This document shows positions 1 through 43,393 of a stretch of DNA of 64,000 nucleotides, in pieces. The position numbers and the translations under genes are program-made. The DNA comes from Anthoceros angustus (taxonomy: Eukaryota > Plantae > Anthocerotophyta). The number at the start of each line of letters is the position of its first letter. The first letter of the stretch is position 1. Location of the stretch: contig MU008201.1 in assembly GCA_010909165.1 (NCBI GenBank), positions 415,288 to 479,287 on the forward strand, in the 5' to 3' direction. The notes beneath the pieces were generated by a model. That model was given only the letters and a program-made list of their open reading frames with translations. It was not told the origin of the DNA and did not search any database.

Positions 1-826
1 ACGCTGTCGACCGCCGAGCCCAACCCGGCTGTGATTCCGGGAGAGGAGGGGCCCCTCACGGATCATCCGATTGGGTGCACCACAACCGCTGTGACGGGGA
101 TTGACCACCCATTCCGAGGCGGCTCAGACCTTCCCACACATGGCGAAGGAGATAGGGGGAAATAGGGTAGGCGGCCGATTAGGTATACCGAAATGCACGT
201 AATAGGGGTGTAATAAAGACGCCACCTTGGGCGCAGATAAGAGGGGCCGAGGCGCCTAGTAAAGCATCTTTCTTGGTGTTGATGCCGCTGCTGCACCTTT
301 GTGAGTCTTCTTGCTAACGTGAGTCCCGAGTCACCGGTGCACATACCCGGGAGATTGATCAAGGTCCCGTGACGACTTAACGCGCTGTGGTGTGTGTGGA
401 AGGGTGATCGTGATCCGGCTCGTCCGAGCCGCGTCCGACCCAACGACTGAACGCGTGAGCCGGAGGAACTCCGGGAGGGCGTGTAGAGCCCGGACGGAGA
501 GGCCCGGCGGAACGACGGAGGAGGTCCGGATCACAACCCGCGTTTTTCTAAGACTGAAGAGTGTAGCGTGAGAGGAGAGAGGAAAGGACTGGATGCGTGA
601 GGATGTATGTGAACGATACGGACGCGAACGGGTCCCTAAACGCTTGGCCATACCGGCTCAGACGAACGCGAGTAGTTAGGAGTATGTGTTGAGACCGAAC
701 GAGCGCTAAGGACTAAGAATCACCAAACGCGTAAACGGGCCTATCATTCCCTTTGGGAACGGACTTCTTCCTACAACGACACGGGATTGTGCGCGCCCGG
801 CTGGCCATCAGCAAAAGTCCGCCACA
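1..826 (+). repeat. 3' part of the 5' LTR of Gypsy copy A
   Basis: Ends ...AAAAGTCCGCCACA just before the PBS; near-identical to ~12160-12950. Confidence 0.92.
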
Positions 827-829
827 TTT

Positions 830-847
830 TGGCGCCGTTGCCGGGGA
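830..847 (+). promoter_or_regulatory. Primer binding site (tRNA-Asp type)
   Basis: TGGCGCCGTTGCCGGGGA 3 nt after the LTR-terminal CA; this is the PBS known from Athila-type elements. Confidence 0.9.
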
Positions 848-1099
848 ATGAAATCGGTCTGTGGTGCTGCAAAGTGCGTCCTTAGGAAGAGAAGGTAAGT
901 GAATGCGTGGCGGTCGAGCGACGGTCAAGAGTGAACCGTCAGGAGGATCGGACGTGGTCACCTCGCGTGCTCTCCGAGCCAGGGAGAGAGAGAGACGTCA
1001 AACCCAACGAGAGAGCACCGTCGATCAGAGGAGGGAGAACGTGGTCGAATTGTCGGACCAAGACGAGTACGGGGTACGAGGGACGCCAACGGAAGAAGG

Positions 1100-2950
1100 T
1101 AGGATGCCCCACGCCTAACCCATCGATGGCGCAGCCATGGCCCCTACCTCGACCAAACAAGCGACTCCATATTCGGAGGAAGAAGGAGCGGATGCGAGAC
1201 CTTTGTGGAGGACTTCGTGTCCAAAGCCAACTTCAACGGAGAGGGAGCCGACGCGCCTCATCCAGCTTTTCCAAGGGGTTCTCCGAGGACAACCGCTCAA
1301 TGGTATCGGAGAAAGTACCGACCACCGGAGAATGCCCCACCCGCCTGCTTGAAGCTTTGAAAATGCCTTCTTAGAACGGTTTCGAGGATCACCAGAGGGG
1401 TATGTATTATCAAAGTTGGAAAATCAAGCGAGGAAGAAGGAGAAGCCGGGCTCAGACATCGAGCGTTCTATGCCCCGAGGGATCGATCCAACCCATACCA
1501 CGATGCAAGCGACGGTGGGGGGCCGCCTAGCCAAACCCATACTGTGCACGCCCCGCCGAGAAGGACGTGGGCAAGGCGAGCCGAAAACTACGAGGAATCG
1601 CTACATCGAGGATAAAGAACCGCTCAAGGAGGCAAGAAGAAGAAGAAGAAACGGGTTCACTCGAGGAGGAAGAGTCTTGAGGAGGAGGAAGACCAATGAG
1701 GTGTCTTCTGAGGAGGAGCGTCCTCAAGAAGAGACGGAGGTCTCTAGCGAGGAAGAGTATCCCGCAAGAAGAAGAGCAAGAAGGCCCCGCTAAAAAGAAG
1801 GTGGTAAGAAGGAGGTGGTGACACCAAGATCGGTCCGAGAAGCTCGGACCCGACTCCCTCAAAGGAGGTAGCAGTCCGGAGGACCGGAAAAGTGATAAAG
1901 AGAGTAGAGGACCGCGATAAACTGTGTTAAGGACCGAGAGCGCGGAAAACACCGACTACGGCGAACGCATCTGTGTGCCGAATACACCATTCGAAGTCCA
2001 ACCGCCTCAAGGCCGCATCAAGTGGACTACGAATACGAGGAGGAGGCCGAGGAGCAATGGGAAGAGGCCTATCGTGCATGTGAAGCCCTCCGGGCCGCGA
2101 TATCCCAAAACCATGTATCCGCCAACCGGAGGTCCGTCAATACAACGGGCCCCACCGATGCAAAGACCGCATGGGAGCCCTTCGTATCCTCCGACGGCCG
2201 TGGTCTCTGGAACCGCGAATCTCGCCATTACTCCAACGCTGTCCGCACTCAACGAGGTGGTAATGGGGACTTCGAGCAGCATCGCAAGCGTGGCATATGT
2301 GCAAGACGCTATGTCCCAACCCCGCAAGGGGCGATACGATATGCCACACCAAGCGGAGAACCCCGACCACCAACGCCACCTCCTAAGACCGGACCGACGG
2401 CAAGTCAAGATGCTGGGCTGGTGGGAAGAGATTCCGAGGTACGCGAGATGGAAAAGAACAAGAAGGTACGGGGTGTCGAAGGAAGGGAGTCAGTGGAAAA
2501 TCTTGAGGTGTCATCAGAGTCAAGGAAGGAGCGACGAGAAAGGCGCCATTGAAGAAGAACAAGATCGAGGAAGCGCCACGACGCCGAGGAAGGCAATCAA
2601 ACGGAAATACCAGCAGAGGATCCGACCGATGAAGGAGGGCTGGACGGCAGCCTCACGAGGGATTACCCAAGGAAGTTCTCCGCAGATGTGGAGAAGGAAC
2701 GGTGCCTCCCGCGACGGCCGACGTTAGCTTCCACGGACGTAGTCCGGAGGTGACCGAGATGTTGCAGGAGGAAATGCGCAAGCATCCGGAGAATACCGTA
2801 ACACGTGACCGGGAGAGGATGAGGACGCAGCAGCAGGATCCTCGATTGGGGTAGAAGCCCGCCTTTAATGTGGCGACCGATGATGAATCGCCAAGACTGT
2901 GTCCTTTCGACCGCCGAGGATAACCCAAATACCGGAGGTCCGCCGGGCCG
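1100..2950 (+). pseudogene. gag: gag of Gypsy copy A (frameshifted)
   Basis: Lies between PBS and protease. Knuckle remnants (W-N-x-x-x-x-x-H-Y-S-N-A) near 2205-2320; collinear with 36750-38300 (-). Boundaries approximate. Confidence 0.7.
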
Positions 2951-2979
2951 TTAGGGAAACCCACGGAGCACCAAAGCCG

Positions 2980-5900
2980 TGAAGGGTAGGCTGGAAGTGA
3001 GGGTGGTGTCCCATACGACCTGGGGCCAAAGGGTACAAGTGGAGATTGGATGTATCATCAAGGATGTACCGCTGACACGGGTCCGAGTCAACCTCATCAC
3101 CGCCAGACGAAAATTGGGCTTCACATCCTTCAACCTCAACGAAGACTCGAGAATGGCGTATATGTCAAGAAGAGATCCGCGGGAGTTAACCGAGTCTTGG
3201 CCACCATAGCCGCACCCTACAAACCGGATTTTGTTGTGATCAAACCGCCGGACCATTAGGGTATGAGGTGTCATGGCCATGGTCGGGTTGGCCTGCAAAA
3301 GCTACACTTTGGAAGGAAGGAGATTCACTTCAAGCCGGTGGACTGGGACCCTAAGGTGCGAGAAGGAGGGTTGCTATCACCGGAGCAAGGACACCTATTG
3401 TGGGAAGCGTGAGCACTACCAAGGGTATACCTCATGAGGAGGACTCCAGCGACGAACAAGATAGTTCCGAGGAGGCGACTTTCGCCAAGATCCGCCGGGT
3501 CCGAGGAGGAGATGGACTACATGGATGCCTTTGGCGGAAGTGGTTGATTGTTTTGAGTAAACGCCACAACGGGCCGGAGGAAGGAAGTGAAGAGGAGGTC
3601 GGACCAAAGACAAGGGGAGACAAGAGTCGGACCAAGGAAAAGCGGACATCAAGGAGTAACACGATTCACCTCCGACGAGCTCTTCAGAGAATGGGGATGC
3701 GAGAGGACGATCCCGAGGAGGACGAGGGGTTTGACGCAGCGAGGCAAAGACGGAACGGGAGACGGTGAACCCGGACGACGACGGAAGAAGTGGAGGTCCG
3801 CCAGCAAATTCTCAAGTTTAAGAAAGGCATGCCTCCGGACCAAGGAAGGACTAAAGCACTGGGGAGTTTTATGAGGTGTTCGCCTTCAAGGTCACGGACA
3901 TGAAGGGCATTCAAGAAGTGGGAGAGCATAAGATCGATTTGAAGCCGTGAGCGTGCCATCAATCCGACAATACAAGCTCAACCCCAAGTATTCGATCAAG
4001 GTGAAGGAGGTCCTTGATAAGTACCGGAGGCAGACATCATTTTCCCCATCGTCAATGAGTGGGTCACGATTGTGGTGGTTCCCAAGAAACAGACAAATTC
4101 GGTATGCCAAGATTGAGGAAGCTCAACGCGAGAAGAAGGACCACTTCCGATGCCATTCAGACGACATTTTGGACAAGGTGGACGGACTACTTACTCCTTC
4201 CTCGGATGGCTACTCCGGATATAACCAATTGCACCTAAGGGAGTTTGACCGACAAGACGACCTTCACTACGAGTGGGGTACGCTTGCCTACAAGAGAAGT
4301 GCCTTTGGGATGACCGAGCGCTGTGGTCGCTCATGCGTATGGTGACCAACGCCTTCCGTGACTTCGAGGGACTTCATGGAGATATTCCCGGATGATTTTG
4401 TGTGCATGGGGAGCAGGACAAACACCTTGGGCATCTAAGAAGGTGCTTGAGCGCCGGAGACTCCAATTGAGCCTACACCCGAGAAATGCTACTTTGGAAT
4501 GACGGAGGGAATCTTGACATCGTGTCCATGGAATCGAGGTGGACCAGACAAGGTCCGGTCATCCGCCTCCACCACGAACCTAAAGGAGCCGAGAGGTTTC
4601 GAATGGTGGGATACTACACCGGTTTATTAAGGACTTTAAGAGGGCTAAGTTGATGTAACCATCGGAAGGAGGAGGTTTGGACCGGCCGTGAGCGAGAGGA
4701 GGCCTTCGGATTTACGTAACACCTTGGTAAGCGCACGGTTCTAAGAGGACCGGACCGAGGAAATTTCATGTGTATGTAGATGTCCGCTGCTATCGGAGTA
4801 GTGCCGAGCCGAAGGACGACAAGCGGATTATCCCGTATACTACCGGACGATGTACCACCCACGCGAACGAAAATACACAACTACAGAGCGAAGCACCGGG
4901 TATGGTATATGTCCAAGAAATTCGACACTACCTACTACCCAAAGGAGTTTGTGTTCTATGTAGACCACTTTGCTCAAGCATCCGTGAATAAGACGGACTG
5001 TCCGGACGGATAGCAAGGTGGATATTGTTGCCGCAGGAGTTCACGTCAAGTGGAAACAAGACAAGGGAGGCAAGACCAAAATGCATTTCGCCACGATTGA
5101 AAACAGAAAGGTGTTGAGAGATCGTGAAGATGCGCTCCGGATGAGACATTGGTTGCCGCAGAAAAGTACAACCGGAGGAGCCCACCGACCGAACCCCAAG
5201 CTACGAGAACGGCACTTAGTTGAGAAGGGAGGGTCTGGCCGTCCGACCCACGAAGAAATAGAGCGGTACCTGGGAATGGAGCTCAAAATCACTGTGGAGA
5301 GGAGGCATTCGTGCACTATGCTCGACCCTTCGTAATGTACAACGGTGTGTGTTCAAATTAGGGCGGAGTAGAACGAAGGTACTTGCAACCGGCAGAGGAG
5401 CGCTGGGAATGCACGAAGGATTGGGGGTGGACACTACGCAAAGACAGTCACCACCAAAAGATTTTGAAGCGGATACCGTGGCCAACAATGTATGGGGACA
5501 CCCACCGCTTAGAAGAAGTGTGATGCTTGTCGGATCGGAAAGCCAACCCCGACGACACAAAGGGCCGCTAGTACCGATATTGGCACCGCACCTTCAAAAG
5601 TGGGGTATTGACTTTGTTGGACCTATACACCACGACAAGACACACACAAAGGAGATACATCCCGTGGCAACGACCATCGCACTGTGGGTAGAGGCGACAA
5701 GAACGGACTCCGCAAATACCGCGGGCCAAATTCTGACGAGAACATCATAACCCGACGGATGTGTCCGCTATCGGAGTAGTGCCGAGCCGAAGGACGACAA
5801 GCGCGGATTATCCCGATACTACTACCGAGTACCACCCACGCTGAACGAAAATACACAACTACAGAAGGCCAAGCAATGGTATATGTCAAGAAATTCGACA

Positions 5901-8620
5901 CTACCTACTACCCAAAGGAGTTTGTGTTCTATGTAGACCACCAAGCATCCGGTGAATAAGACGGACCGTCTGACGGATAGCAAGGTGGATATTGTTGCCG
6001 CAGGAGTTCACGCTCAAGTGGAAACAAGACAAGGGAGGCAAGACCAAAATGCATTTTCGTCACGATTGAAAACAGAAAAGTGTGTGTTGAGAGATCGTGA
6101 AGATGCTCCTGGATGAGACATTGGTTGCCGCAGAAAAGTACAACCGAGGAGCCCAGACCGAACCCCAAGCTACGAGAACTGCATTTTAGGGAAGGGAGGG
6201 TCTCCGTCCGTCCGACCTACGAAGAAATAGAGCGCACTGGGAATGGAGCTTCCCAAAATCGACTCGTGGAGGGAGGCATTCGCACTATGCTCTTCGTAAT
6301 GTACAACGGGTGTGTGTTCAAATTAGGGCCTGACGGAGTAGAACGAAGGTACTTGCAACCGCAGAGATGGAGCTCGCCAAGGGAATGCACGAAGGATTGG
6401 GGGTGGACACTACGCAAAGACAGTCACCACCAAAAGATTTTGAAGCGGATACCGTGGCCAACAATGTATGGGGACACCCACCGCTTAGAAGAAGTGTGAT
6501 GCTTGTCGGATCGGAAAGCCAACCCCGACAAGGGCCGCTAGTACCGATATTGGCACCGCACCTTCAAAAGTGGGGTATTGACTTTGTTGGACCTATACAC
6601 ACGACAAGACACACACAAAGGAGATACATCCCGTGGCAACGACCATCGCACTGTGGGTAGAGGCGGACAAGAACGGACTCGCAAATACCGTGGCCAAATT
6701 CGACGAGAACATCATAACCCGATGATGTCCGCCGCAGCTTGGTAAGTGATAGGGGAACCCATTTCCTTAATGATGTGGTGGCCGCCATGACGGAGTATTT
6801 CGCATCAATCATCGCAAGACGGCACCCTACAATCCTAAGGCCAATGGGTCGACAGAAGACAAATGGGCTCATCTGGGATCTGAATAAACTCACAAGAACT
6901 ACTACGCCCATGGGATACCAAGTCGCCATCCGCACTGTATGCCCGACAGCAGAAGGTGACCACACAACGGACCCCTTACTTGACCTACGACACTCTCCGT
7001 AATGCCGAGAGTTTGAAGTGCCCACTTTTCGAGTAATGATGGAAGGAGACCGACAAGAGGAAAGCCACCGAGCGACTCTTGGGGTTCAGCATAGAGGACA
7101 GTGGAAGAAGCTCACCAAGATGCGTGCAAAACCAAATAAAGATTTGGCACGATCGCCGATCGCGAATCGAGTATGTAAAGGAAGGGACCCGCCTCCTTTA
7201 TGATAGTCGACATGCATTTTCCGCAAACTTCACCGAGATGGATGGGTCCGTACCAAGTGGTGCAAGTATATGACAACGGGTCCGTCCGCCACGACTAGAT
7301 GGAGAGTCGTTGCCCACTGGGTAAACGGGTGGGGTGAAGAAGATTATGCTTAGTGTTGGCGAGACGCCAATGATGAGAAGGGAGTATGGGCTATGCACTT
7401 CGGGAGTTAAGAACAAGTAGGGTTTCGCTTTTTAGGATTGAAGGATAAATAAGGCGAAAAGGAGGAATAAATTGGGGTAGCGCCGGACGAGGCTCGAGTA
7501 TACTCCGACTGAGTGAACAACGGACCCTGCATTACTATGGCAAGCTCCCGACGCCGAGTAACGGATAAGTCCGGAACCCACTCCAGTGTCAAAATAGGAT
7601 AAGTACGCCAGGAAAGTAACCTAGGAGCGAGGCGTGAGGATGACGAGGCGGCGCCACGTGGACGGCCCCGAGTGGAGGTCGGGCATGCAGGCCAGACGAA
7701 TTGCAGAGGCCGCAGGCAGTATTCACGCCTGGCCGGGCGGCGTGGCGGCCGAGTAAGCGAGGGTCGAGTAAGCCATGCACTCGCGCTACGACAACGGCGC
7801 CTTCCGCCAGAAGCATTTTCCACAAGCGCGGAGGGAGGTCAGCCGCAGCCTCCGCATCCTTGCGCCCGCAATCCGGCTCGCGCCTTTTGGGCGCACGGAG
7901 CGACCGTCAAGGTTGGAGCAACAACGCGCGGCGAGGAACATCGCGCCGGACTCGCAAATACCGTGGCCAAATTCGACGAGAACATCATAACCCGATGATG
8001 TCCGCCGCAGCTTGGTAAGTGATAGGGGAACCCATTTCCTTAATGATGTGGTGGCCGCCATGACGGAGTATTTCGCATCAATCATCGCAAGACGACCTAA
8101 GGCCAATGGGTCGACAGAAGACAAATGGGCTCATCTCATCCAGGATCAATAAACTCACAGTGAACTACGCCCATGATCGATACTAAGTCGCCATCCGTGA
8201 CCTGTGCCCGGACAGCAGAAGGTGACCACACAACGGACCCCTTACTTGACCTACGACACTCTCCGTAATGCCGAGAGTTTGAAGTGCCCACTTTTCGAGT
8301 AATGATGGAAGGGAGATCAGAGGAAAGCCACCGAGCGACTCTTGGGGTTTGTTCAAAGACACGAGGATGGAAGAAGCTCACCAAGATGCAGCTTGGTGCA
8401 AAACCAAATAAAGATTTGGCACGATCGCCGATCGCGAATCGTGAGTATGTAAAGGAAGGGACCCGCCTCCTTTATGATAGTCGACATGCATTTTCCGTGC
8501 AAACTTCACCGAGATGGATGGGTCCGTACCAAGTGGTGCAAGTATATGACAACGGGTCCGCCCACCTAGATGGAGAGCTGCCCACTGGGTAAACGGGTGG
8601 CGGGTGAAGAAGTATCATGC
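2980..8620 (+). pseudogene. pol: pol (PR-RT-RNaseH-INT) of Gypsy copy A, frameshifted, with two internal tandem duplications
   Basis: VQVEIGCIIKDVPL (PR); QYKLNPKYSIKVKEVLDKY, KKDHF, DGYSGYNQ (RT); EFVFYVDH (RH); WPTMYGDTH, KWGIDFVGPI, SDRGTHFLN, RWMGPYQVVQVYDNG (INT with GPY/F motif). Confidence 0.92.
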
Positions 8621-8642
8621 TTAGTGTTGGCGAGACGCCAAT

Positions 8643-8655
8643 GATGAGAAGGGAG
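8643..8655 (+). promoter_or_regulatory. Polypurine tract of copy A (duplicate at ~7372-7384)
   Basis: GATGAGAAGGGAG directly after the integrase end and 2 nt before the LTR start. The same junction occurs at 33131-33150 (-). Confidence 0.8.
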
Positions 8656-9222
8656 TATGGGCTATGCACTGGGAGTTAAGAACAAGTAGGGTTTCGCTTT
8701 TTAGGATTGAAGGATAAATAAGGCGAAAAGGAGGAATAAATTGGGGTAGCGCCGGACGAGGCTCGGAGTATACTCCGACTGAGTGAACAAACCCCACCAC
8801 TATGGCAAGCTCCGGACTACGGAGTAACGGATAAGTCCGAACCCACCCATGTCAAAATAGGATAAGTACGCCAGGAAAGTAACCTAGGAGCGAGGCGTGA
8901 GGATGACGAGGCGGCGCCACGGACGGCCCCGAGTGGAGGTCGGGCATGCAGGCCGAACTGCGAGGCCGCAGGCAGTATTCACGCCTGCCGCGCGCCGGCA
9001 GTAAGCGAAGCGAGGGTCGTAAGCCATGCACCGCACGGACAACGAAGAGGCGCCTTCCGCCAGCTTACTTCGCCGGCCAGGGAGGTCATTTCACGCAGCC
9101 TCCCTCGCGCCCGCAATCCGCTCGCGCCTTTTGGGCGCCACTTAGAGCGCGCTAAGGTTGGAGCAACAAGGAGGAACATCGTGCACGGACTCCAGCCACA
9201 AGAACAAGAGGAGGAGAAAGCA

Positions 9223-11900
9223 ATGGCACCCAAAAGCCGACGGAGTCTGGGAGCCATGGACCGTGGAGCGCAACATTGTGACCCGCGCTATCCGGACTTC
9301 GGCCCGGCCGGAGGAAGGGGGGAATTGGTGCAGGAGTGGCATCCGGACGTGTTCCAAATGGTCTCGACCTTTGACAACGCTACCTAGTCCGGAGTTTGCC
9401 CGAAGATGCGGCGATCAACAAGGAGGTCCGATCCAAGAACCTCCGGAGGACCCGAGGCGATGGACCTTGAGGTCCCGAGGATGGCCTACAACCGCTCAAG
9501 GAGGAAGAAGGGGCGTGGTGCCGAGCCCCTTAAGGCGGCGGAAGATAGGGCCACGGCCGGGCGAGCTGAGGCTCGAACGCGGACAACCAACGGATGGTTG
9601 ATATCCGATCCGCCGATCCGAGTAAGGGCGGTAGCCCGGATCATTGTCCATTGAACTCGCCACCAAGGTGGATCACCTTGGTGATAACCTGCTGGTATTC
9701 TCGCATGCGCCCATGGGAAGAGAGGACGGGAAGGATTATCTTCCGGCCAGAGGCACGCAAGCTAAGGAGCGAGAAGCCTCGCCATCGGGGCCGACCCCAT
9801 ACCGATTCATGTATGGGGACATTTCGAGCTCAAGGAGGGAGAGCTTGAGCGGCGCCAAGGCCGGAGGCCCCGCCAAGTAGAGCGTGCAAGGGCGCCTGAG
9901 GTGGGGGTCGCCCTTCAAGACCAAGCGGACTGGAGGAGGACGATCGAGGATTCCTGACTCCATACGCCCTGAGCGAACCCCTCACCACCTGTGGAAGTTT
10001 GGGAGGCGATTCCCTTCCTCCTTTTGGTGCCCTCCGAGGCACAGAGGGAGCCGATGCCGGAGGGCGGCGCACGGCTGCAACAATACCAACAACCACGACG
10101 CCGAGCCCCGACGAACTCAACGGAGCCAAGAGGCGAAGACGGTGCCACCAACGCAAAGACCTCAAGGTGCCGGACTTACCCCGCCACCTGAGTGGCAAGA
10201 GGTCAAGAGGCGGTAAGGAGGGCGAAGGACGTGGCCCAAGGAGCAGGAGGTCACCGGCAGCAGCCCACCCCGAGCCGGCCCCTGCCCCCTGTGAAGGGGC
10301 AAAAGAGCTTGCTCCGGACCCCTCACCTCCTCCGAGCCCTGTGGAGAAAGAGGGCACAAAGGAGTTAGAGGCCAAGAGGGCCAAGAGGGTGAGACTCGAC
10401 CACCACTGTGACCCGAGGGTCCCGATTAGGTCCGAGAACCCACCGACCCCGATCAAGGTATGGAGGTCCTCACGATCGAGAAATGCCGGCTCCCACTACG
10501 GACTTTGTGGGGCCTCACGCGGCCGTGGAAGAAACACGGCGAAGTCCTGCTACCGCCATGGACGGAATGCTTTGGGGTCTCTGGGCAGGAGAAGACCTGT
10601 GAAGTGGAGGCCACCCGAGGAGGATGGTGGAACCCAAGAGCAAGTGAAGGCGGCCGAGGGGCAAAGGAAAACGGAGTCCTCGCCGGATCGAGGAAGGGAA
10701 ACGCCGGTGGCGGAGCGAGGCCCCGCGGTTCAAGCAGATCGTTAAGGTTCTTCACCGTAAACAAGCAAGCTCAGAGGCCCAAGCGGGCGGAGGACCTGCA
10801 AGAAGAGGGAAGCGCAGCAGAGGCGGAAGAGGCCCGGCACAAGCAGAGAGAGCTCGACCGGGCGGAGGCGGCGCCAGAGCAGCCAAGTGGGCGAGGCCTG
10901 TAAAGGCGGCGGCGAGCTCAAGCCGCGCAAGAGCGACCGGATCACCATGCACGTGATCGAACCGTGGAGAGAGCAAAATGAGGCTAACTCAAGGCGCATG
11001 CCACAGTGGAGGCCAAGACTCGGGAGATAGGGATCTCCGAGCACAGGAGGTAGAAGGGAGGCGCAGATGGAGGATGAAGGACACGCTGAGCTACAACCCA
11101 AGATGCGCTTGAGCAGTGATTCTCAACGAGAGAATCCACGACTCGAGCACGAACAGTAGCCCTCTCCTCAAGACGGAGGAAAATCGGCGACTATCCAAGG
11201 AGTTGGACGCTGCTGCTGTATGAGCCGGAGGAAGTCCCGAGCCTGGACGGAGGTATCCGATCACTGAGAGGGAGTCATGAGCTAAAGGCCGTAATGAACG
11301 GAGGAGCGAGCACCGGAAGCGTAAAAGAAGCCGGTCCACCGAGAAAGGCGGAAGGGAACGCGCTATGGCGGTAAGCGGGCATGGAAAGGAAACGACGGAG
11401 CCGGAGCAGTGGAGCAACATGGCGGAGGTGACCGAGGCCGCCTTGTAGCCTCGCGTGATACCGGCCCACCACAACCGGGCAGGAGAGGTGGCCCAACAAG
11501 CCGAGCAAAGACGCCCACCCCGAACACACTTATGGCGAGGGAGTATCGGTGCCCGCACACGTGGAAGAGGCAATTCAACAAGTCGATCTGTGACTTTGCC
11601 TATTACCACGAGCTCAAGAGGCCTCGACGCCGAAACGGACGGACCTGGAAGGCTCAAGGAGATGAAGGCCACGGGGACAAAGACAGGACCCTAGTGGCCC
11701 CTGCTTGAGATGACGGAGCGGAGAGGAGCAACCGGAGGAGCAGAACGAGGGAGCGCGGATGCGATCGAGGTAAGCACCCCGCCTCACCATGGAAGGAGGG
11801 CCAACGAAGGAGTCACGATCGGGAACATGGAGGACTTCGAGGAGAGCCACGAGGAGTCCCGTGAGGGAGGAAACCCGACTTTGTCCCAGAGGGAGGCGGA
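9223..11900 (+). pseudogene. LTR-embedded additional ORF(s): N-terminal globular domain plus coiled-coil-rich region (frameshifted in this assembly)
   Basis: MAPK..VWEPW..VERNIVT..NKEVRSKNLREDPRRWT..TKVDHLGDN..; later REYRCPHTWKRQFNK..DFAYYHEL. Homologous to 23100-24872 (-) and 56433-58950 (+). Confidence 0.75.
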
Positions 11901-11904
11901 GACC

Positions 11905-12000
11905 TCAAGTCCGGACCGAAGTCCGGACTCAAGTCCGGACTGAATAAGTCCGGACCTCAAGTCCGGACTGAATCCGACCGAGGTCCGACCGAGACAAGGC
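11905..12000 (+). repeat. Short tandem AAGTCCGGAC-type repeats in LTR U3
   Basis: AAGTCCGGAC repeated ~5 times; related arrays occur in all LTR copies. Confidence 0.75.
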
Positions 12001-12959
12001 CCGACCTAGCCGGACTGTGAATAAGCCGACTCAAGTTCGTGAGTCGAGACAGACCTCGAGGACCGGGTCGGCAAGAAGGAGGAGCCCCTTCGACTTACGC
12101 TAGGGGAGCAGGGTGGCCCCACCGGCCAAGGACCTGTGGAGGCCAGGAGGATGACGTGGTAACGGGTCGATCCGCCAGAGCCCAACCCGGCTGTGATTCC
12201 GGGAGAGGAGGGGCCCCGCCTCACGGATCATCCGATTGGGTGCACCACAACCGCTGACGGGGATTGACCACCCATTCCGAGGCCTGTGACCTTCCCCCTG
12301 GCAAGGAGATAGGGGATAGGGGTGGTAGGCGGCCGATTAGGTATACCGAGTCAAGCACGTAATAAAGACGCCACCTTGGGCGCAGATAAGAGGGCCGGGG
12401 TCAGTAAAGCATCTTTCTTGGTGTTGATGCCGCTCTGCACCTTTGTGAGTCTTCTTGCTAACGTGAGTCCCGAGTCACCGAAAGGTGCACGGCGCCCGGG
12501 AGATTGATCAAGGTCCCGTGACGACTTAACGCTGTGGTGTGTGCAGGAAGGGTGATCGGTGATCCGTGCTCGCCGAGCCGCGTCCGACACCGAACGGATC
12601 GAACGCCGAGGAACTCCGGAGGGCGGTCCGGACGAGAGGCCCGCGAACGACGAGGAGGTCCGGATCACAGAACTGATTTTTCTAAGACCAAGAGTGTAGC
12701 GTGAGAGGAGAGAGGGACGATGCGTGAGGATGTATGTGAACGATACGGACGCGAACGGGTCCTTAAACGCCATACCGGCTCAGACGGACGCTAGAGAAGT
12801 TAGGAGTATGTGTGTTGAGACCGAACGAGCGCTAAGGACGGAAGAATCACCAAACGCGGTAAACGCCTATCATTCCTTTGGGAACGGACTTCTTCCTACA
12901 ACGACACGGACAGGCGCGCCTTACTGCCATCAGCGAAAAGTCTCAATAACAACCATATT

Positions 12960-17990: not shown

Positions 17991-18464
17991 TTTCCGGCAT
18001 ATGCTTATGCCAATAGGATATCTTAGGAATATGCCGATGCCAATGGCTAGTATATAGACTTTCGCTAGGATCGAGCCCATCATAGCTTGTCCTCTAGATA
18101 TGCAATGGAAGAGTGTTGTGAGGAGGCCAAAGCAATGACTCCGAGAGCGATGTGTAAGGAATGTGTGTGTTGTTCTCATGGGGAGAGTGTGTTTGTGCCA
18201 CAACGTGCGAGCTACTTTCTCTTATTGTTATTGGTTTGCACCTATACTTGCATATTAGATTTGTTTTGCTTGGTTGTTTGTTGAGGGATCTGAATTCAAG
18301 TGCTTACCTCGTACGACAACTCCAAGGGCAGTAGAAAAAAGGGGCGACTAAAAGTAAAAGTGATCATAAATAATTAAATAAGAAGTATGTATTCGTTTTC
18401 TATTAAAAAAGGATGGGATAACGTCCTTGTGCAATCTTGAACGTCAGATGGTATCGTGAAAAAA

Positions 18465-21086: not shown

Positions 21087-21722
21087 TGTGGCGCCGATTT
21101 ACCGACGGCCACCGAAGAGCGGCGACATAATCCCCAAGGTCGTTGTAGTAAGGGGTCCGTTCTCAAGAGAATGATAAACTCCGCTTGGCACGCTTTCAAC
21201 CGATTCTCACCCCAACGCCGCGACTGTTTGGACCCGGCGCACGCGTAACGTGCAGTTCTACGACTAACTACTCTTAAAGTTCACCGACAGTCTCGCGGTG
21301 GCTAAACGCTTAAGGACTCGCTCGTGTCCCGATTCGATCAGGGCGTCCGGCCTTTGTCCGCTCAGTCCGCTCTTCTCACCACTCTCAATGCACTCTAATG
21401 TTCTTGGAAAAGAGTGGGTGGGCTACGAGGTTCGGACCTCCTCTCACTGCCCGGCTGGGCCTCTCCGTCCGGACTCTTCACGCCTCCCAAAGTTCCCCAC
21501 CACGTGCTCGGCCCGTCTGACGTCCGCCGCACCGACGCAGCAAGGGTCCCGATCGTCCATAGACATACCACCACACGTTAGGGTCCGGCTGTGACCTCGA
21601 CTGGCCTCTTGAGTCGCCAGGCCCGCTGACTCGGGACTCACGTTAGCAAAAGACGCACAAGGGTCTACATAAGGAAACGCCAGTATCCACCCCAAGAGAA
21701 AGATGCTTTACTAGAGCAGCCT

Positions 21723-21730
21723 CTTATATA
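21723..21730 (-). promoter_or_regulatory. Putative LTR TATA box (homologs at ~60023 +, ~39048 -, ~32462 -)
   Basis: TATATAAG/TATAAG conserved ~550-640 bp upstream of the LTR 3' end in several copies. Confidence 0.5.
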
Positions 21731-23099
21731 CTACGCCCAAGGGCGGCATCTTTATTACATCTCCTATTCTCGAGCCGGCTGCCCGGGCCAGCCTTGTAGC
21801 CTCGCCGCCTCTATTTCTCCTAACTCCGCCTATCTACGCCGGCTTGAAGGGGGTGCCTTGTTCGCCAACTCGTGGCCCAATCCCCAGCCTCGCCGGTTGC
21901 GCCTCAGACGGATGATCCGCGAGGCGGGCCCCTTCCCTTCCCGAGACTCACAGTTAGCCACCAATACCTAACAACGGCGGTCACCACCAAATCCTCCTCA
22001 CCTTCCTCTCTTGCCTGGTGGGCCCTCGCCTGGGTCCCCAGAGGTTGCTCCTCCGAGTCGGTGATGACTCCCTTGCCTCCCGAGTCCGGACCTCGGTGCA
22101 GCCTCGGGCCGCCCCGGACCTCGTGGTCCGCCTTACTGGAGTCCTGACCTCGAGGTCCGGTCGACTTTGGGGTCCCGACCTGTAGTCCGCCTTATTGAGT
22201 CCGGACCGGGTTCGGACTCAAGGGTCCCTGGACTTCTTCGCCGTGGACTCCCGGGGTCCATCCTCTTCCACCTGACTCACATTGTCCCAAGTCCTCCGGA
22301 CTTCTCCTCTATGGCCCTCCTGGGCCCTCCCTTCCTTCCGTGAGGGGTGCGGAAGACCCTCCATCCTAGTGGCGCCCGCCAGGCTACCTCCGCTCCTCCA
22401 TGTGATCCCTTCCCCGCCACATTGCTGCCTTTTTGACGAACAGCCCCATGCCGTCCACCGGCCTTCATCTCCTCCTCCCTCGATCCTTCTCCAGGTCCGC
22501 TTGCTGACCGTGGTGACGCAGACCTCTAGAGCTTTGAGGAGTTCGGGGTAGAAGGCGGTAAGTCCGAGTCGTGACTTGTTAGATTGCCTCCTCCACGCGC
22601 CCGGAGCACCCGATACTCCTTCAGCCAAAGGGCCCCAGCTGGCATGCCTGCTTGTTGGGTCTGCCTCCTTGCCACCCGCCACTGAGTCGGGCAGACCTCT
22701 GAGGCCACCGGAGGGCCCCTTCCCGAGACTACAGTTGGGCCACCTGGCCTAACAACGGCGGTCACCACCTCCTCCTCACCTTCCTCTCTTGCTCTGGTGG
22801 GCCCCACATGCGGGTCCCCGGAGGTTGCTCCTCCTGGCGGGTGGTGATGACTCCCTTGCCTCCCGAGTCCGGACCTCGGGGTGCGCCTCGATTGCGTCAG
22901 GACCTCGTGGTCCCCTTCAGGTCCGACCTCGAGGTCCGGTCTCGACTTTGGGGTCCGGACCTCAGAGTCCGGCCTTATTTCTGGAGTCCGGACCTCGGGG
23001 TTCGGACTCGCGGGTCCCTGGACTTCTTCGCCCCGTGGACTTCCCGGGGGTCCATCCTCTTCCACCGGACCTCCACATTGTCCCAAGTCCTCCAGGACT

Positions 23100-24872
23100 T
23101 CTCCCTCTATGGCCCTCTCGGGGCCCCCCTCCCTTCCTTCCGTAGCGGGGTGCGGAAGACTTACCTCAGTCCTAGTGGCGTCTGCCATGTCCTGCTCCTC
23201 CATGTGATCCCCTTCCCCGCTGCTGCTGTCTTTGCCGAACAGCGCTCCCATGCTGTCACCGGGGCCTTCATCTCCTCCTCCCTCGGATCCTTCTGGAGGT
23301 CCGTCGGTTGACCGTGGTGACGCAGGACCTCTAGAGCTTTGAGGAGTTCAGCGTGGTAGAAGGCGGTCCAGTCGACTTTGTTGTTGCCTCCTCCACGTGC
23401 GCGCCCGGAGCACCGATACTCCCTTCGCCAAAGGTGCTTTCGGCTGGGCATCTTTGCTGCTTGTTGCCGTCTCCTTGCAGACCCGCTGATTGGAGTCGAG
23501 AATCCTGAAAGGTACCAAGGAGGCCTCCGTCACTTCCTAGCCTCCTGGCTGCTCCTCCGCCTCCACCTCCTCCGTCGTTGTAGCTCGACCTTACTGCCAT
23601 GGAGCTACGTTCTCCGCCGCCATCGGACAAGCGCACGCTCCTCTCGAGAGCCCTCTCCCTCCGTCCATCTTTGCTTGAGGTCGCCATCTCCCCTCTCGGG
23701 CGGTCCGGCATCTCGCCTGCTCGACTTCCTCGTTCTCCAACTCGGCGATGTCCAACTCCACGGATCGCCGCCAACTCCCCTCTGCCTCCCGATTGGGGAC
23801 GGGGCGGGCTCGGGGTGAGGCTGCCGGTGCCCTCCGCTCCCGTCCTCTCGCCCTCCCACGCCTCCTCCCTTCCGCCACTCTGGTAGGGGCAGGCAGATGC
23901 GCTCTGGGCGCGTTGGTATGTCTTAGCCTTTTTGCTTCCAGGTGGCCGAGGTTTACCACCGGGCGTCATGGGCTCTGCTTTCTTGTGTCATGACCATGAC
24001 CTCCTTCTTGGGCCTCCTCCGGTTGGTGTGGGGAACCAAGAGGAGGGAAGGCGGGAATGTCTTCCCACACCTCCCCAGGTGGCGAGGGGTCCGTTCAACG
24101 TATGAGTCGGAATCCTCCAGTCGTTCCTCCTCCCGACCCGCTTGGTCCGGCCAGACCAGACCTCGCCTCCCGCGTTCTTCCTTCTCGCCTCCGCCTCAGG
24201 TAGCGGCCAGCCCCTTCCGTGGCGCCCGCCTCCTCTTCCCCCTCCTTGGGGAGGTTCATGTGCCCCACATGGATGATGAAGCAGCGACATGACGGGTGGC
24301 TTCTCACTTCGCCTTCCGGCCTCCCTGGTTGATTCGAGGAAGATGATCTCGCCCCGGTCGGGCGTTCCCCCTCGTAAGGCGTGGAGGAACACCGTGATTA
24401 TCCCCAAGGTGGTCCACCTTGGTGAGCATATTCCGGTGGGCGATGATCTTCGCCCGCTGCCGTACCCTCCTGTCCGGGAGGTCCAGGCATCGACCACCGT
24501 TGGAGGATCGCTGCCGTTCGGTCGCAAGCAGGGGCCCGGCCGCCTCCTTCCCCTTCACCCCAGAACCACTCCCCTACCCCTCCTGGCGGTTGTAGGCCTC
24601 GGGACCTCCATGGTCCACCTCCTGGGGTCCTCCCGCAGGTTCTTGGAGCGGACCTCCTTGTTTGCCGCTGCCAGCATCTTCCGGGCATACTCCCGGACTA
24701 GGGCGACGTTGTCAAAGGTCCAGACAGCCTGGAAAATATCTAGGTTCCAGTCCTCCACCAGCTCCTGCGCCTCCTCCAGCCAAGGACCGAAGTCCAGGTA
24801 GCGCTTGGTGACGATGTTACGTTCCACCAAGCGCCATGGCTCCCATACCTTTGCCGCCTTCTTGGGTCCCAT
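23100..24872 (-). pseudogene. LTR-embedded additional ORF in the solo LTR (best-preserved N-terminus)
   Basis: MGPKKAAKVWEPWRLVERNIVTKRYLDFGPWLEEAQELVEDWNLDIFQAVWTFDNVALVREYARKMLAAANKEVRSKNLREDPRRWTMEV (within ORF 24555-25166); later REYRC..NKVDWTAFYHAELLKALEV. Confidence 0.75.
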
Positions 24873-26737
24873 CGCGCTCCCCTTGTTCCGCTGTTGGGGC
24901 TTGAAGCTCAACAACCTCACGTTCCTCGCATTGCGTCGGATCGCTCCAACCACAGGGCGCATGAGGGTGCTCAGGCGCTTGAAAAGACAACGCCCGGTGG
25001 TGTCGGCGAGGCTGCGAGAACCGCCGAGGTTCATGGGCTGCCTGGCCGGCGCCCGACCGGCCCGCCTCCCTTCTGTGGGTCCTCCGCAGTGGTGTTCGTG
25101 GGGAACCAAGAGGAGGGAAGCGGGAATGTCTTCCCACACCTCCTGGTGGCGAGGGGTCCGTTCCAAACGTATGGAGTCCGAATCCTCCTGGCCGTCTCCT
25201 CCCGACCCGCTGGTCCGGCCGACCTGACCTCGCCTCCCGCTCTTCCTTCCGCCTCACCGGGTGGCGGCCAGCCCCTCCGTAGCGCCCGCCTCTTCCCCCT
25301 CCTTCGGAGGTTCTATGTGCCCCACACATGGATGATGAACACGACCACACGACGGGTGGCTTCTCACTCTCAGCCTTCCGGCCTCCCGGGTTGATTCAGC
25401 GAAGATGATCTCGCCTCACAAGGTTTCTCTGTAAGGCGTGGAGGAACACCACATTATCCCCAAGGTGGTCCACTCCAGGAGCATATTCCAAAGGACGATG
25501 ATTCGCCATCGCTGCATTCTCCTCGGCCCAGGAGGTCCGCATCTGCCACCTGGAGGATGGCCTGCCTCGGTCGCAGGGCCGCCCGGCCGCCTCCACCTTC
25601 CCCTTCACCTTCGGGGCCCCGAACCACCCCCCATTTCTCCTCCACCGGGCTGTGAGACCGCCTCGACCTCCATGGTCCACCTCCCGGGGTCCTCCCTGGT
25701 GTTCTTGAGCGGACCTCCTTGTTTGTCAGCCAAGATCTTCCGCATACCCCGGGACTAGGGCGACGTTGTCAAGGTCCGCATGTACTGAAAATATCTAGGT
25801 TCCGGCCTCCACCAGCCTCAAGGCCTCCACCAAGGACTGAGTCTGTAGCGCTTTTGGGGCATGTTATTGCTCCACCAAGCGCCATGGCTCCCATACCTTT
25901 TGCCGCCTCATTTGGGTCCCATCGCTGCGCTCCTTTGTTAAATGACCGGAGAACTTGAAGCTCAACAACCCTCATCGCTCTGCCCGGCTGAGTCGGTCGC
26001 TGCCGCTCCAGCGATCGAGCGGGCCGCATGAGGGTGCTCGAAGCGCTGAAAAGACAATTCTGCAGGAGTGTATGTCGTAGCGAGACCTGCGGTGAACCGC
26101 CGCGAGGTTGCTTTGAAGAATGACCTCACAAGCCTCCGCCCGCTCCGATCCGAGAGTAACCGCCATGAATGCAGCGGTGCTCAGCTGCCCGTTTAATCGC
26201 ATCAAAGGCCTCGCATGGCTTTCCGCCACGCTTCCGCCTATCGCTTACCGGCCCTTACATACATGGCGCTATACCCGGGCGTGAATACCTCTCTTGTGCT
26301 TATAACAGGCCACCGGTCAACCCTACGGTCCGTCTGGCCAGATGCCCGCCCACCTCTCGATCACCAGGTCCCACGCATGGCCCCTCACATGAAATCACGG
26401 CCCTGACTCCTAAGTTACCAAGGTTTACACGCGTCATCCATCCGTAAAACCGAGGAGTGTAGTCCGGATTTACTTGCGGGCACCGGAAAGGGTCCGGGCT
26501 CCCTCTAGAGTGGGGAGTCCGGGGAGGCTCCTCCGGGAGTGTGCTCCTGCAGTGCTCGGGTCTTGACCTACCTGTAGTCCTTCGGCCTACTCCGAGTCCT
26601 TCGGCCACCTTACCTGAGTGCGGCAACCGAGTACTCCGGACTTATTTCTTCCTTTCCGCCTTATTTTCTACTCCACGCCTACGAAAAAAACAAAACCTAA
26701 CTCATTTTCTACCCAAGGGGAGAGTCCGCGGTCCACA

Positions 26738-30518: not shown

Positions 30519-31895
30519 GAACCGATCTAGGCTACCGGGATTGCTTGAGTTGGGTCTTGGATTTTAGCTGAACTTGTGGCTGCAAAAAAAAGTACCCAGT
30601 CGATGTGTTGATTGCTCTAATGAAGTTGCGCATTGGCCGGTCCATGATAGAAGGAGAAGAAGGAAGTCTGTTATAGTCCACTTGGATGGAATGTTTCTAT
30701 CGTGGGACTCGGTAATTGACAACTTGTACCAGCATAACATCGCTTCTCAGCCGGCCCTGACTTTGTCTTGTCGTCTTGTCCAGATTACTAGATTACTCCA
30801 CTTCGAACTTCGGCCAGAGTGCAGTAGAGCACTACTATTTCTCAAATTTTTTTATATAAATATCCAAAGAAGATAGAATTTTAACGATATGTAGAGGAGT
30901 ATGTTTCGCGGCCCTCTGGCTGTACGGTTGTTTAATAGTTCTATCTCGTGTTGGAACTTGGGTAGGGTCTAGAGTAGGTGGGGTGCTCTGCCGGACCGGA
31001 GGTCAAATGGTGCACAGAAACGTACATAACAGAGTTATGTACATGACAAGCTTCAACCTACCCACTGAAGGTGGGGAATGACAATTTGGGTTAGCAGCAA
31101 TCTTCTCAAGGTAACGGTCCTACAAAGGTCTACGAAAGCAATGCAAAACAAAATGGCATAAAAGCGGATGTTCACCACAAGTCATAGTGATGTGGCAAGT
31201 ACACAACATAATAGTGGTTGGGCCTCATAGCAACAGAATGTTAAAAAACAATTCTTTTTGTCAACCCAAGTGAGGTGCAACAGCGATGCAGGAATGAGAA
31301 GGCAGCTCACCTCTCGCCTGCTAGCATCTGCAGACATACGCTGAGTAATCCACAAGAGAAAGGAGTTTGGATGCCCAAGGGCCATGCCATGTTACATTGG
31401 AAGGCCTCCCTCCTTACAGAAACTGAGGACTCTCTTATAATTCTCAAGCAGCTCATCTCCCTTGGACTCATTAATTTGTTAGCGGCTACACCGAGCCCTA
31501 TATTCCATTTTGTGCATAAAGAATACATACTCTACACTTAGCTACCTAGCCATGGGCCTAGCTTTGCAGAAGGTAGGGCCAGCCTTATGTAATTTTCTAC
31601 TAGAAATTTCAACACTTTGTATCTCCATGTAACTGTGCATTCATATGGTTTCACCCCTAAAAGACCATACACGGGCTCAAGTGCGCAACACAACTTGAGA
31701 TGCTGGAGAATTACTACTAGTCACCACGAGAAATCCAAGGAAATTGATCGATACTACATGTATCATCGAGAGAGCAATGGGCCCCTTCACAAAATGGATC
31801 CGCCATAGAAGCAAGCTTCCATGATTTCCTAACCGGGTTCATAAAACTAGGCCCCATGTGCGTGGCATACGCACTATGCTGGTGACAGGGAGTCA

Positions 31896-33131
31896 TGCTG
31901 ACCAACGATGGGATACTGCCGCACAATCCCGTGTGTCGCTTGTGGTAATGGAGTCCGCTCCCAAGAGAATGATAGCTATTGCGGCGCTTCTCACCTTTCT
32001 TCAGTCCACTTCACCTTAACACACTCAATCTTCGCTTACACAGCTATTTATAACGCTTCACCGACAGCCGGTGTGGCCAAACGCTTAGGACTGCTTGCGC
32101 CCGCTTCGTCATTACGTTCTTCACCCGTTCCTCATCGCCTTCTACACTTATCAACCTTGGAAAAGAACGCAAGTGGCTACACGACCTCCTACGCTGTTCA
32201 CGGGCCTCCGTCCGGCCTCGCAGACACCCTCCCAAGTACCTCCACACGCCCGGCCCTCGACGTTGGACCGCCTCGACGAACAAGGTCCCCTGCCCTTCCC
32301 CGCACACACCACCACACGCTAAGTCCGTCACGGGACCTTGACCGCCTCCCGAGTCGCCGTGCTCGCCATGACTGTGACTCTAGCAAGAAGACGCCCAAGG
32401 GTCCGCAAGAACGCGATCAACACCAAGAGAAAGATACTTTACTAGAGCGGCCTCACCCCTCTTATACTCACGCCCAAGGTGGCCTTATTACACTTTATTC
32501 TCGAATATGGCCTCAAGATGCCCTAATCGGCCGCCTACCATCCTATTTCCTCCCCTATCTCCTCTCATGTGGGTGCCAAGATCCTGCGGATGGGTGGTCC
32601 AATCTCCGTCCCCGATAGCTGTGCGCCCCAATCGGATGATCCGTGAGGCGGGCCTCCTCTCCGGAATCGTCTTATTACACGCGGTCTCGACAACCGCCTA
32701 CCACGACGTCATCCTCCCCTCGGCCTCCCCGGGTCCTCGCCGGGGCCACCCCCATCTCGCCCCTAGCGTAGGGGCCCCTCCATCGCAGCAGCCGGACTCG
32801 AGGTCTCCGCCTGACTCCCAACTCGGAGTCCGCTTATTTCTCGAGTCCGCCGGCCAGGTCCGACCTTGTCTCGGGTCCGGACTTACCCCTGCAGATCTCA
32901 AGGGTATCCGAGCTTCCGGACGCCCGAGTGTAGTCCCGAGTTTCCAAGTGAGTCCTGCCCGAGTGGTCCGGGTTTAGTCGAGGTCCGTTTAGTCCCGAGT
33001 GGTCCGTACTCAAGTCCCGGAAGCGCCATCCGTGCTTATTCCTCCTTTTCCGCCTTATTTTACTATTCCAACCTACAAAAAAACAAAACCCCACTTATTT
33101 CCTAACCCCCAAGGGAAGTCCGTAGCCCACA
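31896..33131 (-). repeat. 3' LTR (short form) of copy B
   Basis: Starts TGTGGGCTACGG after the PPT; matches 38493-39710. Confidence 0.88.
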
Positions 33132-33149
33132 TACTCCTTTCTCATCTCA

Positions 33150-36100: not shown

Positions 36101-36749
36101 AATCCACGGGTTTGAAGTGGATTTCCTTCCTGCCGAAGTGTAACTTCGTCTGAGCCAGCCCGAGCCACGGACGTCCCAACAGTACCTCGTACCCCAGAGG
36201 TCCGGCGGGTCTGATGACTACGAAGTCCAATGTATAGGGGGCTCCCGCTATGGTGGCTTGGACTCCGGACAACTCCCCCGCTGGCGCGCGTCGTGACATA
36301 TCCGCCATCCGAAGGGTTTTGGTGGATGGCTCAAAGGCAGTGAACCCCAACCGTCTTGCGGTGGCTTCCGTGATGAGGTTCACTCCTGACCCCGTATCCA
36401 GAGGTACGTTCTTGATCACACACCCCGCAATTTCTACCTGAACCACTGGCGCCCCGGGGTCCGTATGAGACACTACCCTTACCTCCACATTCTTGTCCTT
36501 TCGACTCAAGGGGTTTCGTCGTGGTTGTGTCTCCCTGATGGCCCTCCGGACTTCCTGCCGATACTTCGGGTTGTCTTTTAACAACTGCCTCAGTGTTACC
36601 AAATGTTGTTGATCCATCATCGTCCTACCTTGAAAGGTGTGGGTGGCTCCTTCACGATCCCGCCTCCGAGTCCTCCATCCCGCCAAGCACTGGTGGTCGG
36701 ACCACTCGGGTCTGTGGATCTCTTCCCAAGCATCTCCGCCACTGGCCAC
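33150..36749 (-). pseudogene. pol: pol of copy B (protease in ORF 35997-36749; RT/RH/INT frameshifted)
   Basis: VQVEIAGCVIKNVPLDTGSGVNLI..VLLGRPWL; QYKLNPKYSIKVKEVLDKY; LDDF; FTGMVGYYRRFIKDFAK; WWPTMYGDTHRFVKCDACRRIG. Confidence 0.92.
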
Positions 36750-43174: not shown

Positions 43175-43240
43175 TGGCTAGAGAACCTCTTGCTTCCCTC
43201 TCCCTCCGAAAGCATCAACGAGGAGAGTGAAGTTGAGGTT

Positions 43241-43393
43241 GTGGGAGTTAATCTTCTTAACCAGGCAAGAGGTTGGACGGGTAGAGAAGGTATGGGAGTC
43301 AATCTTTCAAATCAGGCAAGAGGTCGGAGGGATAGACAAGGTATGGGATTTAATCTTCCAAACCAAGCAAGAGGTCGGAGGGGTAGACAAGGT
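43241..43393 (+). repeat. 51-bp tandem repeat x3 (MGVNLSNQARGRRDRQG-like when translated)
   Basis: Three in-frame units; four degenerate units at ~50830-51030. Confidence 0.8.

What the first reader, a model, noticed from the sequence alone, without database searches (positions are those of the whole stretch)
8658..12950. Giant Gypsy LTR carrying a ~2.7-3 kb protein-coding cassette inside U3
Seen: integrase ends, the PPT (GATGAGAAGGGAG) follows, and then comes the same LTR start sequence that begins the short LTRs of copy B and both solo LTRs. The matching LTR end is only reached ~4.3 kb later. Between them is a sense coding cassette (9223-~11900) upstream of the conserved TATA-like box. Established: extra ORFs of plant LTR elements (Athila env-like, Ogre, Tat/Retand) normally lie in the internal region, outside the LTR; LTR-resident genes are best known from retroviruses (MMTV sag, HIV nef overlapping U3). 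Inference: this family puts an accessory gene in the LTR, so each full-length insertion would carry two copies and the gene survives solo-LTR formation.
Basis: partly seen in the sequence, partly recalled or inferred. Interest (0 to 1): 0.85.

Follow-up and report, generated by a model that had tools for sequence, protein, structure and literature searches.

The report
Plant retrotransposon with gene inside LTR
A plant jumping-gene family carries an extra protein gene of unknown family inside its normally non-coding end repeat, so the gene stays behind even in orphaned repeats, and it is likely made from a spliced RNA much as the mouse mammary tumour virus makes its repeat-encoded gene.

Summary
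Confirmed in its core. The 4.3-kb stretch is the 3' LTR of an Athila-like Ty3/Gypsy element (PBS TGGCGCCGTTGCC, 5-bp TSDs). Two related long units (C, D) occur without gag-pol, PPT or PBS; C sits inside one unit of a host satellite with a 4/5 target duplication, so the cassette lies inside the LTR, not in the internal region. Copy B has 1.2-kb LTRs without it. The window is a noisy assembly, so no long open frame is visible; in a frame fixed by one clean copy, 41 of 71 substitutions fall at codon position 3 (error control 7 of 28). Coding is shown for the first ~280 codons, weak for the middle, not shown for the last third. No homologue was found. A T-rich TAG|G site 45-57 nt into every LTR copy and an AAG|GTAAGT donor after the PBS suggest an env-style spliced mRNA (inferred, untested). 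Likely origin: an Athila-type 3' accessory ORF drawn into U3. The scan noted the same layout earlier on other DNA (fungal Ty3, one moss-like case). New variant of a known kind.

The parts
1..826 (+). Copy A 5' LTR remnant (3' part of U3, R, U5; cut by window start), ends CA
   Evidence: 86% match to 12166-12942; sequence
830..847 (+). PBS TGGCGCCGTTGCCGGGGA (tRNA-Asp/Asn type)
   Evidence: only match in the window; same motif as Athila PBS in bioRxiv 10.64898/2026.03.20.713144
892..900 (+). AAG|GTAAGT, candidate major splice donor between PBS and gag (inferred)
   Evidence: top rank of 617 GT sites in copy A by my own crude score; not matched in B's leader
1135..8640 (+). gag-pol of copy A, frameshifted in this assembly, with two ~1-1.3 kb tandem duplicates that are likely assembly artefacts
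   Evidence: colinear with B; protease Pfam E 7.6e-5 on B's copy, below cut-off; short-read contigs skip the duplicates
8643..8655 (+). Polypurine tract GATGAGAAGGGAG
   Evidence: the same tract precedes B's 3' LTR at 33146
8656..12950 (+). Long 3' LTR of copy A (4.3 kb)
8688..8706 (+). T-rich tract + TAG|G, candidate splice acceptor at LTR +45 (inferred)
   Evidence: present in 7 of 7 aligned LTR starts; top-ranked AG in B, C, D and tied for top in A by my crude score
9223..10040 (+). Cassette, conserved N-terminal coding domain (~280 codons; starts ATG GCA CCC AAA)
   Evidence: third-position excess; shared motifs in A, C, D; ATG context conserved in 5 of 6 aligned rows, the sixth ends before it
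10040..11200 (+). Cassette middle: low-complexity linker and Glu/Arg/Ala-rich, likely helical part; mostly absent in C
   Evidence: A/D synonymous excess z 2.7, no periodicity; frame uncertain
11200..11945 (+). Cassette 3' part; short shared motifs, coding not shown; possible small intron from G|GTAAG at 11770
   Evidence: one RNA-run contig skips the matching part of C, letters between not known
11907..11970 (+). Tandem AAGTCCGGAC repeats; a similar motif also lies at 8833, so the cassette is flanked by it
12361..12415 (+). AATAAA, TATA-like box, A(G/A)TAAA and CATCTT; likely promoter and start of R (inferred)
   Evidence: TGTAATAA(A)G kept in 6 of 6 aligned LTRs
12460..12468 (+). AAC|GTGAGT second candidate donor in R/U5; deleted in both LTRs of B
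21087..26737 (-). Solo LTR C with cassette (clean frame 24872-24558), TSD ATACC/ATATC, inside a host satellite unit
31890..39710 (-). Copy B: gag-pol with two short LTRs (38490-39710, 31890-33131) lacking the cassette
55768..60606 (+). Solo LTR D with cassette (ATG ~56435), TSD TCATC/CCATC (weak alone)

Best explanation
This is an Athila-like Ty3/Gypsy family whose long LTR holds a protein gene in U3, likely an Athila-type accessory ORF that moved into the LTR and is likely translated from a spliced RNA. Shown: the cassette lies between the LTR start and the TATA-like box, goes with solo LTRs, and its first ~280 codons evolve as protein. Inferred: the genomic RNA begins at R of the 5' LTR; a donor after the PBS joins an acceptor 45 nt into the 3' LTR, cutting out gag-pol as an intron, which gives a message for the cassette; reverse transcription copies U3 to both ends, so the 5' copy would be silent unless U3 has its own upstream promoter. 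Inferred origin: plus-strand priming shifted to the extra PPT that follows pol in env-bearing Athila elements, which turned the acceptor and ORF into U3. The protein has no membrane helix, starts Lys-rich and is likely a soluble, trans-acting helper; B-type elements lost it, probably by deletion between AAGTCCGGAC-type repeats, and still copied themselves.
For: LTR location: C's flanks rebuild the satellite unit seen at 7 other places; no PPT before and no PBS after C or D; LTR-start motif only at termini; B shares both ends. Short-read contig depth over the cassette averages 2176 against 1318 over non-duplicated internal bins, ratio 1.65 (summed contig depth, a rough hint only). Coding: third-position substitutions 20 of 35 (A) and 21 of 36 (D) against C's clean frame, pooled p 2e-5 though the two share C's branch; same-locus duplicate 7 of 28; sense stops 57/61/25 against 78/79/52 expected in A/D/C, antisense and non-coding LTR parts near expectation. 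Splicing: acceptor-like site in 7 of 7 LTR starts, top rank in each element; B lacks AACGTGAGT in both LTRs and the leader donor. Literature: extra PPT in the linker of Athila4 and Calypso and predicted acceptors for Bagy-2 and Athila env-like ORFs (PMC2829016, passages). A 1635-nt contig of the likely RNA run lies colinear on three pieces of the cassette middle. Max 19-residue hydropathy 1.55 or less in 9 of 9 sense frames.
Against: No spliced junction was seen. Splice-site ranks come from my own rough score, and B keeps the T-rich site without the cassette, so it may serve another role (e.g. 3'-end formation). Conserved upstream ATGs lie between acceptor and cassette start (e.g. 8801, 9026). 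A versus D alone shows no synonymous excess in the N-terminal part by the free-frame test (z -0.8) and the 3' third none in any pair (z -1.2). No Pfam match to Athila ORF-1 or any family, so homology to env-like ORFs is untested. No relic of an older PPT near 11900. The LTR tree is star-like (54% support for the one inner split among subfamilies), so gain versus loss rests on midpoint rooting.
Confidence: 0.6

Rival explanations
1. The gene is in the LTR but is expressed from its own promoter in the first 560 nt of U3, so every LTR, solo ones included, is an independent gene.
For: Conserved blocks upstream of the ATG (AGTATTCACGCC, AAGCCATGC) in A, C and D; Grande's accessory gene has its own promoter (PMC7264820).
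Against: No TATA-like motif noted there; the strongest conserved signal at the LTR start looks like an acceptor. The two routes are not exclusive.
Confidence: 0.25
2. The cassette is a captured host gene or nested element inserted into U3 and carried passively.
For: B shows the LTR works without it; similar motifs flank it; gene capture is known in plant LTR elements (PMC7264820).
Against: Purifying selection across three subfamilies whose LTRs differ by 16-22% substitutions; no termini or TSD of its own noted; no cellular homologue in 1.84 billion representatives for the first 105 aa.
Confidence: 0.08
3. The cassette is an internal 3' ORF and the long units are artefacts of a noisy assembly or rearranged fragments.
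For: The assembly is error-rich with false tandem duplicates; A's 5' LTR is not in view; D's TSD alone has a 5-13% chance match with free register.
Against: Two independent loci have the same ends; C rebuilds a host satellite unit; no second PPT or LTR start; no short-read joint that skips the cassette among the 10 joints listed.
Confidence: 0.05

Closest known systems
Athila clade (non-chromovirus OTA) and its sense 3' extra ORF (env-like / Athila ORF-1), incl. Bagy-2, Calypso
   Same: Asp/Asn-type PBS, 5-bp TSD, sense extra ORF downstream of pol, a PPT right after pol, predicted splice acceptor before the ORF.
   Different: Known ORFs lie between pol and the 3' LTR (PMC7264820); here the ORF lies after the only PPT and inside the LTR, persists in solo LTRs, has no membrane helix and no Pfam match.
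MMTV sag
   Same: Accessory gene overlapping U3 of an unusually long LTR, made from spliced mRNA, with U3-deleted variants (PMC9147501, passages); solo LTRs occur (PMC11998498).
   Different: Retrovirus, 1.3-kb LTR, Sag is a membrane protein; no sequence link claimed. Works-like comparison only.
CRM group A chromoviruses
   Same: Plant Gypsy with coding sequence inside the 3' LTR (PMC3059260, passage).
   Different: There it is the tail of integrase running on into the LTR; here a separate ORF starts 565 nt inside the LTR after pol has ended.
Diaspora (env-less Athila-lineage element)
   Same: Asp PBS, pol stop close to the PPT, long LTR, loss of the extra ORF (PMC1142308, passages); parallels copy B.
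   Different: No LTR ORF was reported in the passages read.

Membership tests
Ty3/Gypsy LTR retrotransposon | LTRs with TG...CA, PBS, PPT, TSD | tested here: met
   TG start clean in B and C, CA end clean in A 5' LTR and C; other ends noisy
Ty3/Gypsy LTR retrotransposon | Order PR-RT-RH-INT | tested here: met
   Protease (Pfam E 7.6e-5) upstream, integrase zinc finger (E 0.016) downstream, both under cut-off; RT/RH motifs between them read by eye from frame fragments, labels recalled
Athila clade | tRNA-Asp/Asn PBS | tested here: met
   TGGCGCCGTTGCC at 830; 72% Asp and 12% Asn in Athila, but also 37% Asp in TatII. B's PBS is missing or garbled
Athila clade | 5-bp TSD | tested here: met
   4 of 5 letters match in C and D; excludes Phygy, Selgy, TatI (4 bp)
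Athila clade | No additional RNase H, no chromodomain | tested here: inconclusive
   pol ends just before the PPT; PR-RT linker is acidic; Pfam found no RNase H in 20 fragments but missed RT too
Athila clade | RT-RH-INT phylogeny within Athila | not testable with these tools
   No labelled reference set held; REXdb FASTA supplement too large to read
Athila env-like / ORF-1 extra ORF | Located between pol and the 3' LTR | tested here: not met
   Lies 565 nt inside the LTR
Athila env-like / ORF-1 extra ORF | Sequence similarity (PF03078 or related plant transposon ORF families) | tested here: inconclusive
   No hit on short frame fragments; a by-eye likeness of motif spacing to PF20167-type domains is recalled and comes from no call
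Athila env-like / ORF-1 extra ORF | Transmembrane segment (some members) | tested here: not met
   Max KD19 1.55 or less in 9 of 9 sense frames; frameshifts could hide one
Solo LTR | One LTR, TSD, no PBS, PPT or internal region | tested here: met
   C clear, D weaker

The most novel reading that the evidence does not exclude
A land-plant Athila-like lineage has turned its LTR into a 4-kb gene cassette: an orphan ~600-900 aa accessory protein, moved into U3 by a PPT shift, expressed by retrovirus-style splicing and possibly from hundreds of solo LTRs, supplying a trans-acting helper (for example against silencing) that short-LTR siblings exploit.
Probability: 0.35. Interest if true: 0.8.

Novelty: new variant of a known kind. 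Interest (0 to 1): 0.62.

Why it matters
Plant extra ORFs are described as internal, and LTRs are treated as neutral non-coding clocks and promoters. A selected gene in U3 means solo-LTR formation, the host's usual way to delete an element's genes, leaves this gene in place; LTR-based dating and annotation would be off for such families; and long/short LTR siblings in one genome give a natural test of what the long-debated plant 'env-like' accessory proteins do.

Tried and rejected
Homologue searches, all blank: word search with the 105-aa clean frame, phmmer on 1.84 billion representatives, viral contigs by protein and by a degenerate pattern, PDB sequences (best E 1.4), Pfam. One search used frame 10460-10900, which later suggested is partly the wrong frame, so it counts for little. 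The same word search also missed the element's protease and Pfam missed RT fragments, so blanks are weak. The one metagenome hit L001 is a chance match in a Cas9-like gene (name recalled from its N-terminal motif). AlphaFold on the single 105-aa sequence gave pLDDT 50; no fold search was run on it. The ESM Atlas gave no answer. Host gene look-up: exact sequence not held; host known only as a land plant from a GT47 gene. Global alignment of short versus long LTRs was uninformative; one search replaced it. No RNA holder listed; run X2 behaves as RNA (two contigs match the GT47 gene with 0 differences) and has no cover on gag-pol of A or B, which I do not count as evidence. Two of six hand-picked motif blocks were set in the wrong frame and all were picked by eye, so that pooled figure (36 of 73) is not relied on. 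Literature searches for a plant precedent listed none by title or abstract start; subscription journals are mostly not held, Wright and Voytas 2002 could not be read, and Additional file 1 of PMC6317226, which lists eORFs per element, was too large to read and may hide such cases.

Full report
Setting. The window is from a land plant, judged from a clean 658-codon GT47 gene at 28542-30518. No genome is held. Repeats in the window are error-rich: self-alignment shows six pairs of adjacent 0.6-1.3 kb duplicates at 77-90% identity; the pair 4781/5762 differs by 1.6% substitutions but 4.8 gaps per 100 nt, and A's two LTRs by 3.1% and 7.0. Short-read contigs (run X1) show 564 indel sites against 13.6 kb of the window and joints that skip two of the duplicates. 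Frameshifts here are therefore mostly read errors, and whether a given copy is intact cannot be told.

Anatomy. Four related loci are present. Copy A: 5' LTR remnant 1-826, PBS 830, gag-pol, PPT 8643-8655, long unit 8656-12950. Copy B (minus): gag-pol between two LTRs of 1221 and 1242 nt. C (minus, 21087-26737) and D (plus, 55768-60606): long units with no gag-pol. B's LTRs match the first 100-200 nt and last ~950 nt of A, C and D and nothing between. The LTR-start motif occurs at 6 places, all termini or the noisy duplicate; the PPT pattern had 5 matches, of which 3 precede an LTR start (7372, 8643, 33146), 2 are unrelated, and none lies inside a long unit or before C or D; the PBS occurs once.

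Is the cassette inside the LTR? C interrupts a host satellite: its left flank ends CCTACGAGGATACC and its right flank begins ATATCTGTTATAAAAC, which rebuilds the unit found at 7 other places with a 5-bp duplication, 4 of 5 letters alike. D has TCATC/CCATC, which alone could be chance (5-13% with 3-9 registers). B's 5' LTR starts with the same motif directly after host DNA, so that motif is the true 5' end. Summed contig depth over the cassette is 1.65 times that of internal bins, in the direction expected for an LTR, and some hundred times that of contigs matching the single-copy gene (3.4-3.9); the tool warns this is no copy number. I put the LTR location at about 0.92.

Is it coding? With the frame fixed by C's clean run from ATG (24872, 93 codons), substitutions by codon position are 8/7/20 for A and 9/6/21 for D, against 12/9/7 for the same-locus duplicate and 22/10/53 for the protease control. 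A free-frame test gives sense z 2.4 and antisense -1.1 for the N-terminal part (5 non-independent pairs; A/D alone -0.8), 2.7 for the middle (A/D), -1.2 for the 3' third, 0.0 and -2.6 for non-coding LTR parts, 6.5 for gag and 5.2 for pol. A periodicity test agrees for the N-terminal part only (z 0.8-2.6 in 4 pairs). Sense-strand stops are fewer than expected in all three cassettes and in gag, not in the other LTR parts. Short motifs are shared by all three copies from the ATG to about 10040 and again near 11555-11620. So a ~280-codon domain is under purifying selection (about 0.95); a single 600-900 aa protein is plausible but not shown. No homologue, family or usable fold was found.

How it likely works. 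The TATA-like box and an initiator-like CATCTT lie at 12385-12415, downstream of the cassette, so the cassette is in U3; the start site is inferred. From established retroelement biology, the genomic RNA holds U3 only at its 3' end, behind gag-pol, so the ORF needs splicing or its own promoter. All 7 aligned LTR starts have a T-rich tract and TAG|G at +45 to +57, the top-ranked acceptor-like site in B, C, D and tied for top in A; the top donor-like site in A is AAG|GTAAGT 45 nt after the PBS (my own rough score). B, which lacks the cassette, lacks that leader stretch and AACGTGAGT in both LTRs but keeps the T-rich site. Passages of PMC2829016 report an extra PPT in the linker of env-bearing Athila4 and Calypso and predicted acceptors for their env-like ORFs. 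The order here, pol stop, PPT, acceptor, ORF, promoter, is what that layout would give if the upstream PPT took over. This origin is inference (about 0.45); splicing about 0.55. Run X2 appears to be RNA: a 1635-nt contig lies colinear on three short pieces of a related cassette, and a 514-nt contig skips 23023-23188 of C, around a G|GTAAG site shared by A, C and D, with the letters between not known. Both are hints from relatives, not proof. An LTR tree puts C on the longest branch; with midpoint rooting B lost the cassette, support weak. AAGTCCGGAC-type repeats on both sides of the cassette offer a deletion route.

Comparison. PBS and TSD fit Athila (Additional file 5 of PMC6317226); TatII shares the PBS but has an extra RNase H, for which I saw no sign but had no sensitive test. 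PMC7264820 (main text read) places plant extra ORFs in the internal region. CRM group A has integrase running into the 3' LTR (PMC3059260, passages). MMTV sag overlaps U3 and comes from spliced mRNAs (PMC9147501, passages). PMC6317226, PMC1142308, PMC11998498 and the ATHILAfinder preprint were read as passages. Five searches listed no plant element with a separate gene inside the LTR; I saw listings and abstract starts only. Earlier notes of this scan describe the same layout in other genomes (3 of 3 rows, 2 of 4 rows); they are unchecked leads, and none was found by sequence or in this genome.

Verdict. It works like an accessory gene in U3; it is filed as Athila-like, not as a proven Athila env-like ORF. 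New variant of a known kind; interest 0.62.

Noticed in passing
window 28542-30518 (-): Clean single-exon GT47 (exostosin domain, E 1e-80) host gene amid noisy repeats; matched at 0 differences by two contigs of run X2. It holds an internal 81% repeat (28090-28473 / 29292-29665).
   Followed up: partly
window 20430-21085 and 26740-27530: Host satellite of ~70-109 bp units split by solo LTR C.
   Followed up: yes
window 18416-18837: Tandem array of 27-nt units with occasional 37-nt units.
   Followed up: no
window 41875-44239 and 49445-52006: AT-rich ~2.4-2.6 kb direct repeat, ~89% alike, 7.6 kb apart; no clear TG/CA ends seen, ORF 45160-45930 between them has no Pfam hit.
   Followed up: partly
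window 16008-16262 (+): Isolated fragment 69% like the PR-RT linker of copy A (3678-3927).
   Followed up: no
window 9664-9684, 56832-56852: The best-kept cassette motif is a 9-bp perfect inverted repeat (ACCAAGGTG GAT CACCTTGGT) in A and D; changes in C are synonymous, so coding seems the constraint.
   Followed up: partly
window 12361-12410: AATAAA upstream of the TATA-like box and A(G/A)TAAA just before the inferred start, suggesting a poly(A) signal in U3 and a very short R (parallel to MMTV recalled, not checked).
   Followed up: no
window 38440-38490 (-): Copy B's PBS is missing or garbled and ~30 nt of leader is absent relative to A.
   Followed up: partly
L001:1969-3231: Cas9-like gene start in a metagenome contig; chance hit, unrelated.
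   Followed up: yes
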